Part shown: piece by piece, positions 12,883-16,000 of the stretch
Layout of the letters: every line of letters begins with the position of its first letter
How positions within the stretch are numbered: the stretch's first letter is position 1
Position numbers and translations under genes: made by a program
The notes under the pieces: generated by a model
What the model saw: only the letters and a program-made list of their open reading frames with translations
Told to the model about the DNA's origin: nothing
Database searches by the model: none
From: Escherichia coli
GTDB taxonomy: Bacteria > Pseudomonadota > Gammaproteobacteria > Enterobacterales > Enterobacteriaceae
DNA length: 64,000 nt
Assembly (NCBI RefSeq): GCF_024502345.1
Contig: NZ_JALDNN010000001.1
Strand: one strand, 5' to 3'

Positions 12883-14505
12883 TCAGCCTAGGGCCGCGCG
12901 TATCCGCTGCTTCCAGTCGAACACCCGGGCATGGTTGGCCCCAGATGAGCTTTCTTTCGGGTGATGCACAGAGTGCAAAGGCTCACAGTACTTCGCCATG
13001 GTGCCTGGCCAACGCAACGAGCCTTTCACTGTTCCCCTCAAGATCCTGTCTATGCATTTTCCTGCCTCAACACCTGCTTTGAAGCCCATGATCCGCGTTG
13101 ACATGGTCTTCCGGTTGTCTGAGGTATCTATTTCTAGAAGGTAGCGTTGATCGCCGTTTTGCAGCTTGAACCTTGCCAGCAGATAGCAGCGTGATTTTTC
13201 GTGATCAATCATGTGGTAGCTGCAACGTGGAACGGGCGGCAGAGGCCTCACTTCCAGTGCTACCAGCGCAACTCCAGACTCTTGGGTGATTTGTTCAAGA
13301 ATCTCTCGGAGCAGCGAGAAGCGATCTGCAAGCCGTTCATGCTCGTCCCCATCACCCTCTCCCTCACCCAATTGTTGGAATTCTCCTGACGCTATGCTGC
13401 CCTCGCTCACAGGATCAGCCACGCCGAAGAGTTGGCTTTCTCTGCTCGGGCATTGCTCGTCGTCGACCTTCTTGCCATGACCGTTGGCACGCTCCCCGTT
13501 GTAGGCGATCTTGGTGCGCAGCTGAGCATCAAACGTGACTCCCTCAACGGGCAGATGAATCAACCTCTGCTCCTTGGCAGCAGTCGGCTCTTCGTCAGCA
13601 TCCACCTCCAACTCTTTCGCTCCCGATGGCACGGATACACAGCCTGTGTTCTCTCCCCTGACGGGTAACTTGAGAGCAGGGTGATGGAAAAAAATATCAC
13701 CGCGATGGCTAAACCGGAGCCCCTGAAGCTTTTCGATCTCCCAGACCAGCAATTCGTTGCTTTCCGGATCAAAGGGGCCTCGCACATCCATGGTGGTACC
13801 CGCGAGGGAAGTGGGTGCCTGAAAGTCGAACTGCCACCTGGCATACGCCGACTCTTGCAGTACCCGCTCTTGCCTTTGATTGAGGCTTTGCCAGATTGAC
13901 TCGAAGGATCGCCTCACATCCTGATTCAGCAGCAGCCAACTGAAATGGTCTCTGTATCCCTTGATTTTGAGAAGCTGACTTGGGGCCCCCGTCTTCGGGG
14001 GCGTATGGATATGAACAACATCGCCCTCTCTGTAGATCGTGAAGGCCATGTCCAAGCCATTCGGTGCGAAGGCTGCACGAACGATGAAGGCTGCGTGGAA
14101 GAACATTTTTCGTGCCAGCTCGAATTTCGGCAGCCAGACGGTCAGACCATCGACCTCGAACACAAAGCATCGCTGTCCAGATATCTCAGGATTTGCAGCA
14201 AGCCTTCTGGCCAGACGTGGGCACTCACCCAACTGCCTTTCCCGCCAGGTATCTATTGCAGGAAGCACCACCGTCTTCTTGAAACCACTGGGACGATAAG
14301 GAGCCCCTTCTTCGCCAAGAAACTCGCGACCAACGGCCAAGACACACGACATCTCCTGTGCGAACCGCTGCAGCTGCAGCTGACCGTTACGCTCAAAGAG
14401 AGCCGCCAACTGCCACTGGGCCGCCGGAGTCTTGGCCCTGAAAAAATTTCCAACGGCCAGCAACCTGGATCCGTTCGGGATCTGACGAAATACTGTCCTA
14501 TTCAA
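12883..14505 (-). CDS. Putative TnsE-like target-selection protein (assigned by size and position only)
   Basis: 540 aa (Tn7 TnsE is about 538 aa), immediately downstream of tnsD-like gene with 8-nt overlap; no motif-level confirmation. Confidence 0.4.
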
Positions 14506-16000
14506 TCCATCTTCCTATCAATCGAATGAACGCAGTGGTCAGTGGTGCCACCCTGCTTTTTTCCAATCCACAACGCTTTTCCAGCTCCCAGCGCCTAGAC
14601 GTTATGCCTGTCTGTACATCCTTCAGCATCGCTGCAGTCAGGCGACGGATCTGATACTCGCCGACGGACTCGGCATAGCGATCCAGGAAGGTGCAGCAAA
14701 GAGGCAATTGATCGAGACGGTGCTCGACTGATGCCCGATGGGGTAGCTGCTGCAGGAACCAGTTGCGACTCCTGCGCGGAAGGCCCAGGTCTTCTTCGCT
14801 ACCTCTACCAATCCGGATCAGCAGGCGCACCAACCTTATGTCACGCGCTCGCCAGTCGATGTGGCTGTTGTTGCCCTGTCGGCGCTGCCTGACCTGGTTC
14901 GCAACCATCAGCCAGTGTCGGTCATGACGATAGAGCCAGGCGTAACATGCCCCTGCTCCGTCTTGCCTGGCTGCCTTGGCTCCACCGTGATTAGCCAGTG
15001 CTTGCAGCCAAATGGCTCGGTACTGCTGCTTTTGCTCAAACTCAGCAGGGAGCAGCTGCACTGACCGCTCGGAGGCAAGGTCGACCTGGCGAGTCTTCGC
15101 CTCGCTGATCAGCTCGCCAGCATGCTGGCCAGGGCGCAGGCTGGTCCAGACGATCAGATGCTGCAGCGCACTGAATCCCTTGCGATGCTTCCTGAACATC
15201 GCCAACAGCCAAGGTGGAGGCTCTCCGGATGTCAGCAGACCGTTCGCAGCAAGCCAATCCCTTTGATGGGATGCCAGGATCTTCTCCCAGATGACTTCAG
15301 CCCTGACCTGCCGGCCTCGCCTGGCGCCGCACTCTGTAGCCAGGTACCGGTACAGGTTGGTCCAGCGTCCGTAGCCAGGCGATTGCACCTCTTCGAGCGC
15401 CAGCAGCTGCATAGCAGCCTTGGCGAGCCTGATAGCCTCTTCGCCCACGGGACTCACGCGAAGATCACGGGGCAGAAACAGTGGAGAGGCTGTATGAAAC
15501 TCGTGCCGCTGCGCTCGACGGAACGGGATAGGTGAGTTCAGGAGCTGACAGCCATGCTCGGGACAGGCATCTATCCCTTGAATCTGCCAGCTGCGCCGCC
15601 AGTAGGGTTCACCGTAGCGCGCAGCCATATCTTCAAAGCAGATCGGGCAGTAACGCAGCCAATCGGGCCACTTGACCAAGGCCGTCGAGGCCCCAGACAG
15701 ACCAATCGTCGGCCGGTCGGGAGCAAGCATGGCCTGAAAAAGATCGGTACGGCGCTCCGGCGGAATGAAAGGGGCATAGAGCGGGAACAGCGTGTGATTC
15801 AGGATCATGCCTTCCGCATCCAAGCCCGTGTTGTTCGCCAACGCAGTCAGGTGTGTGGGCAGATCGGTGATCGCGGCAACCTTGCTGTCACCGAAAAGCA
15901 TGTGCAGCAAGGTCTTGTGGCTGCCTATCCCCAGATGTACCCGGCACCGGGCAATACCGCTGTAAAGCAGTTCGTCCGGGTAGAGCCTGGGGAAGTACAT
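14498..16000 (-). CDS. tnsD: TnsD/TniQ-family target-site selection protein
   Basis: 500 aa; N-terminal TniQ-like region (YPDELLYSGIARC) and CPICFED...CPEHGC zinc-finger motif. Confidence 0.75.
   Translation of the reverse strand: MYFPRLYPDELLYSGIARCRVHLGIGSHKTLLHMLFGDSKVAAITDLPTHLTALANNTGLDAEGMILNHTLFPLYAPFIPPERRTDLFQAMLAPDRPTIGLSGASTALVKWPDWLRYCPICFEDMAARYGEPYWRRSWQIQGIDACPEHGCQLLNSPIPFRRAQRHEFHTASPLFLPRDLRVSPVGEEAIRLAKAAMQLLALEEVQSPGYGRWTNLYRYLATECGARRGRQVRAEVIWEKILASHQRDWLAANGLLTSGEPPPWLLAMFRKHRKGFSALQHLIVWTSLRPGQHAGELISEAKTRQVDLASERSVQLLPAEFEQKQQYRAIWLQALANHGGAKAARQDGAGACYAWLYRHDRHWLMVANQVRQRRQGNNSHIDWRARDIRLVRLLIRIGRGSEEDLGLPRRSRNWFLQQLPHRASVEHRLDQLPLCCTFLDRYAESVGEYQIRRLTAAMLKDVQTGITSRRWELEKRCGLEKSRVAPLTTAFIRLIGRWIE

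What the first reader, a model, noticed from the sequence alone, without database searches (positions are those of the whole stretch)
12883..16000. Dual target selectors (TnsD/TniQ-like plus a TnsE-sized protein) with an unknown attachment site
The TnsD-like protein has the TniQ N-terminus and CCCH-type zinc finger; the following 540-aa protein matches TnsE only by size and position. The right end abuts a low-GC island module rather than a conserved housekeeping gene such as glmS, so the insertion may have used a TnsE-like (mobile-DNA-directed) pathway or an uncharacterised TnsD target.
Basis: inference. Interest (0 to 1): 0.4.

Follow-up and report, generated by a model that had tools for sequence, protein, structure and literature searches.

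The report
Ordinary Tn7-type transposon, off its glmS site
The two genes are the standard TnsD and TnsE target-choosing proteins of a Tn7-family transposon that carries a heat-resistance island; its home site is the well-known one after glmS, and this copy has simply jumped elsewhere, most likely by the TnsE route.

Summary
The operon ends at a Tn7-type right end at window 20626.

The 540-aa ORF is a true TnsE, not just TnsE-sized. It matches Pfam TnsE_C at 5.5e-44 and aligns along its full length with Tn7 TnsE.

The attachment site is not unknown. Elements encoding exactly this TnsD protein sit 24-26 nt after the glmS stop codon, right end nearest glmS, in four Pseudomonas-like genomes. Variants 97-98% identical in DNA do the same in E. 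coli, with 5-bp duplications.

The window copy is a genuine non-att insertion. It has a CATTT duplication, and an uninterrupted empty site exists in other E. coli. It lies in a tRNA-Asp island.

I found eight further non-glmS contexts for near-identical or 97-98% identical copies, on plasmids, in islands and in narL. None resembles glmS. TnsE-directed insertion is therefore the best explanation for this copy.

The cargo is the tLST/LHR heat-resistance locus. This is canonical Tn7 biology, so interest is low.

The parts
12883..14463 (-). tnsE. 526 aa by the RefSeq start; the mechanical ORF from a TTG runs to 14505 and gives 540 aa. It is the second target selector, the structure-specific one directed at replicating DNA.
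   Evidence: Pfam TnsE_C 5.5e-44 over residues 394-535. PDB 5d16/5d17/9d5l TnsE C-terminal domains at 1.7e-10 and weaker. Collinear along its full length with Tn7 TnsE of pBS228, 24% identity, with the segment P-x-x-E-L-A-R-x-x-F invariant. PGAP names relatives 'Tn7-like element transposition protein TnsE'.
14498..16000 (-). tnsD (500 aa). The sequence-specific target selector for the glmS attachment site.
   Evidence: Pfam TniQ 1e-29 and TnsD 2.4e-20. PDB 8glu Tn7 TnsD 1.3e-46. 34% identity to Tn7 TnsD through to the C-terminus. CCCH at C118/C121/C145/H148. The identical protein is encoded in elements sitting 24-26 nt after glmS.
16002..17612 (-). tnsC (536 aa). AAA+ regulator.
   Evidence: Pfam AAA_22 1.8e-18 and TniB 1.3e-11. 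Tn7_TnsC_Int is on record as a weak hit for the identical gene in related loci.
17605..19692 (-). tnsB (695 aa). DDE transposase subunit.
   Evidence: Pfam Mu-transpos_C 4.5e-8. TnsB_N and HTH_TnsB are on record for the identical gene in related loci.
19679..20506 (-). tnsA (275 aa, intact in the window). Endonuclease subunit.
   Evidence: Pfam Tn7_TnsA-like_N 2.7e-20 and Tn7_Tnp_TnsA_C 2.1e-18.
20560..20626 (.). Right end of the transposon. On the minus strand it starts with the terminal 5'-TGTGGGATGCAAATAAAGG, followed by two tandem copies of TCCGTATAAATAAAGT (TnsB-type sites).
   Evidence: Similarity to all other copies stops at 20626/20627.
20627..20631 (.). [quoted passage not shown]
   Evidence: The same CATTT abuts the left end in the near-identical genome NZ_LR536430.1. 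The flanks joined with one copy removed match an uninterrupted site in NCTC9966 over 995 ungapped positions at 99.5% identity.
1..12800 (-). Cargo: part of the tLST/LHR heat-resistance island. The window holds HTH, sHSP20, ClpK, PLD-like/Cls, FtsH, sHSP-GI, YfdX1/2 and HdeD, plus transposase and ATPase gene scars at about 12027-12791. The cargo runs off the window's left edge. The left end lies about 8.4 kb further on in NZ_LR536430.1.
   Evidence: Pfam HSP20, Clp/AAA_2 and HTH_17. RefSeq annotation of the near-identical locus. Left end located in L002 at 2188-2205.

Best explanation
The region holds the two target selectors of a complete, apparently active Tn7-family transposon (tnsABCDE). 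In near-identical genomes the element is about 29 kb, and its cargo is the tLST/LHR heat-resistance island.

TnsD is the homing selector. It recognises the 3' end of glmS and places the element 24-26 nt after the stop codon with the right end nearest glmS, which is classical attTn7.

TnsE is a true homolog of Tn7 TnsE. By analogy it directs TnsABC to replicating or mobile DNA without sequence specificity.

The copy in the window is not at glmS. It is a simple cut-and-paste insertion with a 5-bp duplication (CATTT) near the end of a small YagK/YfjJ-like ORF, in a genomic island next to tRNA-Asp. It was most likely made by the TnsABC+E pathway.

Shown: gene identities, the ends, the duplications, the empty site, the glmS homing of the identical TnsD, and the diversity of non-att sites. 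Inferred: that TnsE, rather than untargeted TnsABC activity, made this particular insertion, and that this TnsE binds 3'-recessed ends and the beta clamp as Tn7 TnsE does.
For: Identity of the proteins:
- Searches give Pfam, PDB and alignment support for all five Tns proteins.

glmS homing:
- The exact 500-aa TnsD is encoded in elements directly after glmS in L020, L024, L027 and L028. The right end starts 24-26 nt after the stop codon, and three of the four downstream sequences differ.
- E. coli variants 97-98% identical in DNA sit at glmS with duplications AGCGG and GGGCT.
- 6 of 5426 E. coli genomes carry this junction.

Real transposition at the window site:
- CATTT is present on both sides.
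- An uninterrupted empty site exists, 995 ungapped positions at 99.5% identity.
- Only 3 of 5426 genomes share this junction.

Other non-att insertions of near-identical or 97-98% identical copies, two checked and both with perfect 5-bp duplications:
- G3/10, in a gajB-like UvrD gene, CCAGT.
- Strain 81, in an integrase gene of a tRNA-Phe island, GCAAC.
- A plasmid-backbone site shared by many plasmids and by chromosomal copies with the same flank.
- Five more contexts.

Pathway:
- None of the non-att flanks resembles the glmS 3' end. They score 17-21 of 55 identities, against 45 of 55 between two glmS sites.
- Most non-att sites are plasmids or integrated mobile DNA, which is the published preference of TnsE (PMC11406308, PMC12153342).
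- TnsE is intact, and the ELAR-containing N-terminal segment is its best-conserved stretch against Tn7 TnsE.
- Three chromosomal non-att insertions whose replichore can be inferred all have the same polarity, with the right end origin-proximal.
Against: - There is no experiment. TnsE dependence of any of these insertions is inferred from analogy with Tn7.
- The enrichment in mobile DNA could partly be survivorship, since insertions in core genes are lost and mobile DNA spreads.
- One insertion (narL in OW849527.1) is in a core chromosomal gene.
- The shared polarity rests on n=3, which has a 1 in 4 chance.
- I could not read the primary papers that state which polarity Tn7 TnsE gives. My own derivation from the NAR 2025 text suggests it might even be the opposite one.
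- The insertion may have happened in the island while it was in another host or replicon.
Confidence: 0.75

Rival explanations
1. This TnsD recognises an uncharacterised attachment site, and the window shows the element at that site.
For: The element is not at glmS here. Between the window lineage and the E. coli glmS-resident lineage, the C-terminal half of TnsD is more diverged (6-8% overall, concentrated in aa 300-430) than TnsA/B/C (about 1.5%).
Against: - The exactly identical TnsD protein is found in elements at glmS with canonical spacing and orientation.
- Only 3 of 5426 E. coli genomes share the window junction, although the empty target exists in others.
- Nine different non-glmS contexts show no common sequence and no resemblance to glmS.
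Confidence: 0.03
2. The window insertion was made without a selector, or with TnsD at a chance pseudo-site. That is, low-level untargeted TnsABC activity rather than TnsE targeting.
For: The non-att sites are sequence-diverse, which is also what random insertion gives. Gain-of-function TnsC is known to allow untargeted insertion in Tn7 (PMC4678854). One insertion is in the core gene narL.
Against: - In Tn7, wild-type TnsABC is inactive without a selector (PMC12153342).
- TnsE is intact and conserved in the active-looking copies.
- The sites are strongly skewed toward plasmids and integrated mobile DNA.
- No glmS-like sequence is present at the window site.
Confidence: 0.17
3. The 540-aa protein is unrelated cargo, and the element has TnsD as its only selector.
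Against: Pfam TnsE_C 5.5e-44, PDB TnsE C-terminal domain hits, a full-length collinear alignment with Tn7 TnsE, and its operon position immediately after tnsD.
Confidence: 0.01

Closest known systems
Prototype Tn7 (tnsABCDE; attTn7 downstream of glmS; TnsE pathway to conjugating or replicating DNA)
   Same: - The five-gene operon is in the same order next to the right end.
- The ends are TGT...ACA termini with repeated TnsB sites: contiguous repeats at the right end, and the terminal site plus two apparent spaced copies seen by eye at the left end.
- It makes 5-bp target duplications.
- It inserts 24-26 nt after the glmS stop codon with the right end proximal.
- TnsD has a TniQ domain with a CCCH finger and a C-terminal TnsD domain.
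- TnsE has the TnsE_C domain and the conserved P-x-x-ELAR-x-x-F segment.
   Different: - The proteins are distant: TnsE 24% and TnsD 34% identical to Tn7.
- The cargo is the roughly 20-kb tLST/LHR heat-resistance island instead of the class 2 integron.
- The TnsB-site sequence differs.
- Activity and TnsE biochemistry are untested for this lineage.
Tn6230-type sil/pco Tn7-like elements (yhiN attachment site)
   Same: A Tn7-like tnsABCDE module carrying a stress or metal-resistance island. It is found on IncHI-type plasmids and moves into Enterobacterial chromosomes (PMC8417528, PMC11406308).
   Different: That lineage homes between yhiN and yhiM, not at glmS. The element here homes at glmS. 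No yhiN junction appeared among the sites I looked at, though I did not search for one specifically.
Tn6022/AbaR elements (comM site via TniQ+TnsF, distant TnsE)
   Same: They have two target-selection routes, including a TnsE homolog, and form resistance islands (PMC10293859, PMC11014353).
   Different: In Tn6022, tnsE is encoded far from the other tns genes near the left end, and homing needs TnsF at comM. Here tnsE directly follows tnsD in the operon and homing is at glmS.

Membership tests
Tn7 family (heteromeric TnsA/TnsB transposons) | TnsA endonuclease plus TnsB DDE transposase plus TnsC AAA+ regulator, encoded together next to one end | tested here: met
   Pfam TnsA N and C domains; Mu-transpos_C for TnsB in the window, with TnsB_N on record for the identical gene in related loci; AAA_22 and TniB.
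Tn7 family (heteromeric TnsA/TnsB transposons) | 5-bp target-site duplication flanking complete ends | tested here: met
   CATTT for the window copy and NZ_LR536430.1; CCAGT (G3/10) and GCAAC (strain 81); AGCGG and GGGCT at glmS.
Tn7 family (heteromeric TnsA/TnsB transposons) | Asymmetric ends with terminal TGT...ACA and multiple TnsB-binding repeats | tested here: met
   The right end has three contiguous repeats at 20568-20626. The left end in L002 has the same 18-bp terminus; the further, spaced partial repeats were read by eye only.
glmS-targeting TnsD | N-terminal TniQ domain with CCCH zinc finger, plus C-terminal TnsD DNA-binding region | tested here: met
   Pfam TniQ 1e-29 and TnsD 2.4e-20. 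PDB 8glu 1.3e-46. 34% identity to Tn7 TnsD through residue 495. CCCH at 118/121/145/148.
glmS-targeting TnsD | Orientation-specific insertion at a fixed short distance downstream of the glmS stop codon | tested here: met
   Four loci with the identical TnsD and two E. coli lineages have the right end 24-26 nt after the stop codon, right end proximal, whatever the downstream sequence. Direct binding of TnsD to glmS DNA is not testable here.
TnsE | TnsE C-terminal DNA-binding domain (PF18623) | tested here: met
   5.5e-44, 150 bits against a cut-off of 26.7, covering the full profile. PDB TnsE C-terminal domain hits.
TnsE | N-terminal domain with the conserved beta-clamp interaction motif | tested here: met
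   The alignment to Tn7 TnsE is collinear from residue 1. [12 protein letters not shown] aligns with IPQLELARSLFL, with P, E, L, A, R and F invariant. That this segment is the clamp motif rests on my recollection of Parks et al. 2009. PMC4678854 states only that a conserved N-terminal motif does this.
TnsE | Binds 3'-recessed DNA ends and directs orientation-biased insertion into lagging-strand or conjugating DNA | not testable with these tools
   Only indirect evidence: non-att copies lie mostly on plasmids and integrated mobile DNA, and three chromosomal insertions share one polarity.

The most novel reading that the evidence does not exclude
This Tn7-like element is currently active and is the actual vehicle that moves the tLST/LHR heat-resistance island between glmS, plasmids and chromosomal islands, across Pseudomonas-like hosts and Enterobacteriaceae. 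Its TnsE route lands often in integrated islands and defence loci, not only in conjugative plasmids. The tLST reviews I could read say only that Tn7 elements 'can flank' the locus and that no systematic analysis exists (PMC8290217).
Probability: 0.55. Interest if true: 0.35.

Novelty: already known. Interest (0 to 1): 0.15.

Why it matters
For target-selection biology it adds nothing new. TnsD at glmS plus TnsE is the textbook Tn7 arrangement, and reviews state that TnsE is almost universal among glmS-targeting Tn7-like elements (PMC11406308).

The modest practical value is for food-safety and clinical genomics. The heat, chlorine and pressure tolerance island tLST/LHR rides on a complete transposon that looks mobile. 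Near-identical copies (99.9% or more over 7.7 kb) with intact duplications are found at glmS, on plasmids and in several chromosomal islands.

That gives a concrete and testable mechanism for how the island spreads. It also gives a simple way to find its boundaries: the TGTGGGATGCAAATAAAG termini and the 5-bp duplication.

Tried and rejected
1. Pseudo-attTn7 hypothesis. I compared the 100 nt outside the right end of every non-glmS copy, in register and with shifts of up to 5 nt, with the glmS flank. They gave 17-21 of 55 identities, against 45 of 55 between two glmS sites. Rejected.

2. Left end in the window. No second terminus is present in the window. It lies about 8.4 kb beyond the window's left edge in the near-identical NZ_LR536430.1.

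3. NCBIfam gave no family hit for TnsA, TnsC, TnsD or TnsE, so it was uninformative. Pfam and PDB were decisive.

4. Published polarity rule for TnsE insertions. Peters & Craig 2001 (PMC312648), Parks 2009 (PMC2752310), Parks & Peters 2009 (PMC2614081) and Shi 2008 (PMC2475729) are not held. The accessible papers say only that the orientation is single with respect to replication and opposite to TnsD-directed insertions. I therefore could not say whether the polarity seen here is the Tn7 one.

5. G3/10 as a fourth polarity data point. Its surroundings are a large mosaic of plasmid-like DNA (Hha, H-NS, IS26), so chromosomal replication direction is uninformative.

6. Literature searches for a named tLST-carrying Tn7-like transposon. 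I found only a passing remark in PMC8290217. The P. aeruginosa clone C papers place TLPQC in PACGI-1 at a tRNA-Gly gene or in a CRISPR array and do not mention Tn7.

7. The sil/pco Tn7-like element of pMG101, considered as the same element. It homes at yhiN, so it is a different lineage.
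Full report
**Anatomy**

The minus strand of the window carries a five-gene operon:
- tnsA, 19679-20506
- tnsB, 17605-19692
- tnsC, 16002-17612
- tnsD, 14498-16000
- tnsE, 12883-14463 (the mechanical ORF from a TTG extends to 14505, giving 540 aa)

Pfam assigns these domains:

| Protein | Pfam family | E-value |
|---|---|---|
| TnsA | Tn7_TnsA-like_N | 2.7e-20 |
| TnsA | Tn7_Tnp_TnsA_C | 2.1e-18 |
| TnsB | Mu-transpos_C | 4.5e-8 |
| TnsC | AAA_22 | 1.8e-18 |
| TnsC | TniB | 1.3e-11 |
| TnsD | TniQ | 1e-29 |
| TnsD | TnsD | 2.4e-20 |
| TnsE | TnsE_C | 5.5e-44 (150 bits; cut-off 26.7) |

NCBIfam had no family for TnsA, TnsC, TnsD or TnsE.

Against solved structures, the 500-aa protein matches the Tn7 TnsD N-terminal fragment 8glu at 1.3e-46. 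The last protein matches the Tn7 TnsE C-terminal domain 5d16 at 1.7e-10.

Against the prototype Tn7 proteins encoded on plasmid pBS228:
- TnsD is 34% identical through to its C-terminus.
- TnsE aligns from residue 1 to the end at 24% identity.
- The best-conserved N-terminal stretch is [12 protein letters not shown] against IPQLELARSLFL. From memory of Parks et al. 2009, this is the beta-clamp-binding motif. PMC4678854 confirms only that a conserved N-terminal motif binds the processivity factor.

However, the second protein is a true TnsE, not merely TnsE-sized.

**Ends and cargo**

Just outside tnsA the sequence reads ...GAACCTTTATTTGCATCCCACA, ending at 20626. On the minus strand this is TGTGGGATGCAAATAAAGG, followed by two tandem TCCGTATAAATAAAGT repeats.

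Similarity to every other copy in E. coli genomes and in plasmids stops at 20626/20627.

Window 1-12800 is cargo. It holds HTH, sHSP20, ClpK, a PLD-like/Cls protein, FtsH, sHSP-GI, YfdX1/2 and HdeD. This is the tLST/LHR heat-resistance island, and it runs off the left edge of the window.

In the near-identical genome NZ_LR536430.1 the left end (the same 18-bp terminus) lies beyond DegP. That makes the element about 29.1 kb.

**This copy is a real transposition event at a non-att site**

The 5 nt outside the right end (20627-20631, CATTT) are repeated outside the left end.

I joined the two flanks with one CATTT removed. The result is a sequence that occurs uninterrupted in E. coli NCTC9966, matching over 995 ungapped positions at 99.5% identity.

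The target is near the end of a small YagK/YfjJ-like ORF, next to a type III R-M block. It lies in an island between tRNA-Asp and yafV-ivy-fadE.

Only 3 of 5426 complete E. coli genomes share this junction. Several others have the empty site.

**Where TnsD sends the element**

E. coli copies that are 97-98% identical in DNA lie directly downstream of glmS with tnsA nearest glmS:
- Strain 873.10 has the duplication AGCGG.
- TC24, AREA_C483, the mussel ST536 isolate and 1218KP have the duplication GGGCT, in a different downstream sequence context (lpf-O113).

Six of 5426 genomes carry the junction.

Those lineages have a TnsD that is 92-94% identical to the window's, so I looked up the exact window protein. 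It is indexed in 2692 blocks of public assemblies. Of ten places shown, four have the element immediately after a 610-611-aa GATase/SIS protein (GlmS). The gene order there is atpC-glmU-DeoR-glmS and the flank GC is 59-65%. I infer these hosts are Pseudomonas-like.

In all six glmS contexts the right end starts 24-26 nt after the stop codon, whatever the sequence downstream.

This is classical attTn7 behaviour (PMC12153342, PMC11406308). The 'unknown attachment site' is glmS.

**Where else the element is found**

The tns module occurs in 73 of 5426 E. coli genomes, at 60 chromosomal and 30 plasmid places. It also occurs in 111 PLSDB plasmids, mostly Klebsiella and Escherichia.

| Non-glmS context | Duplication checked |
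|---|---|
| Window site (tRNA-Asp island) | CATTT |
| gajB-like UvrD helicase gene beside an OLD/AAA nuclease gene, G3/10 and LR536431 | CCAGT |
| Integrase gene in a tRNA-Phe island, strain 81 | GCAAC |
| Plasmid-backbone site next to WP_001209045.1, shared by many plasmids and by chromosomal copies with the same flank | not checked |
| DUF2254 fragment, 1332KP | not checked |
| IS1B-adjacent site on the 873.10 plasmid | not checked |
| CopG/RelE site on the 2273-PO3 plasmid | not checked |
| narL in a non-E. coli enterobacterial chromosome, OW849527.1 | not checked |
| Klebsiella variicola IncFIB plasmid | not checked |

None of these flanks resembles the glmS 3' end. They give 17-21 of 55 identities, against 45 of 55 between two glmS sites. 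They also share nothing with each other.

**How it most likely works**

By homology and by the site survey, TnsABC+D homes the element to glmS. This step is well supported.

The window insertion and the other non-att insertions are best explained by TnsABC+E for four reasons:
- TnsE is intact and conserved.
- The sites are sequence-diverse.
- The sites are strongly skewed to plasmids and integrated mobile DNA.
- Wild-type Tn7 TnsABC is inactive without a selector (PMC12153342).

This step is inference.

In three chromosomal cases the direction of replication can be inferred from the K-12 gene order, and for the window also from GC skew. These are the window, strain 81 at pheV, and the narL insertion. 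All three have the right end on the origin-proximal side.

A single polarity is what TnsE predicts (PMC4678854, PMC5371812). However, n=3, and I could not read the primary papers that say which polarity Tn7 shows.

Untargeted insertion remains a minority rival. An uncharacterised TnsD site and an unrelated 540-aa cargo protein are effectively excluded.

**Comparison with what is known**

This is the textbook Tn7 two-pathway design. [quoted passage not shown] Large surveys have catalogued such elements (PMC8649781, PMC10293859), and PGAP already names these proteins TnsD and TnsE.

The tLST literature I could read notes only that Tn7 elements can flank the island and that a systematic analysis was lacking (PMC8290217).

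The sil/pco Tn7-like element of pMG101 is a different lineage that homes at yhiN (PMC8417528).

**Verdict**

Novelty is nil for target selection. There is modest practical interest in that a heat-resistance island is the cargo of a transposon that looks currently mobile.

Noticed in passing
L034 (K. variicola plasmid p1_020019) 4616-6118; rows H30-H40; rows H138-H143: In a Klebsiella plasmid copy, tnsD carries a nonsense codon at position 249 (W to stop). About ten plasmid records of the 97.2% variant (rows H30-H40) lack an annotated TnsD. Another set of K. pneumoniae plasmids has TnsE truncated to aa 170-526. Plasmid-resident lineages seem to be losing their selectors.
   Followed up: partly
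window 19920-19935 (tnsA): The window has GGG and an intact 275-aa TnsA. The three RefSeq genomes with the same insertion (NZ_LR536430.1, ABWA45, C 236-04A) have GGGG and a split tnsA. This is either a real inactivating frameshift or a homopolymer sequencing error. Another assembly with the same flank (L023) has intact tnsA.
   Followed up: partly
window 21908-24965: Relative to NZ_LR536430.1, the window lacks three blocks of about 1.4, 2.4 and 4.5 kb inside the type III R-M / DUF4391 / helicase defence cluster just right of the transposon. The junctions overlap by 2-4 nt. The window therefore comes from a different genome, with a decayed defence island.
   Followed up: no
window 14498-15100 (C-terminal half of tnsD): TnsD differs by 6-8% in amino acids between the window lineage and the E. 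coli glmS-resident lineage, concentrated in residues 300-430. TnsA, TnsB and TnsC differ by about 1.5%. Both lineages nevertheless use glmS.
   Followed up: partly
window 20627-20631, and the left flank in L002 2206-2240 / L004 2975-3005: The target duplication CATTT begins at the last base of a GGCCTTC...GAAGGCC hairpin followed by T-rich sequence, which looks like a terminator. attTn7 also lies in a terminator region. Whether hairpins attract this element was not examined.
   Followed up: no
window 12027-12791: Between tnsE and the cargo, the four annotated copies I inspected for it keep the same scar: a 96-102-nt fragment of an 'ATP-binding protein' gene. All but TC24 also keep transposase gene fragments. 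These may be remnants of an older element on which the cargo was acquired.
   Followed up: no
L005 (873.10 chromosome) with L016 (873.10 plasmid); 1218KP (L009 and H105); CP056396.1 (L021 and L022): Several genomes carry two copies of the element at once. One pattern is a copy at glmS plus one on a plasmid or in plasmid-like DNA. Another is two non-att copies in one chromosome.
   Followed up: no
window 20626; L032 10556; L029 5375: Three chromosomal non-att insertions (tRNA-Asp island, tRNA-Phe island, narL) all have the right end on the origin-proximal side, as inferred from the K-12 map. The glmS insertions have the same polarity.
   Followed up: partly
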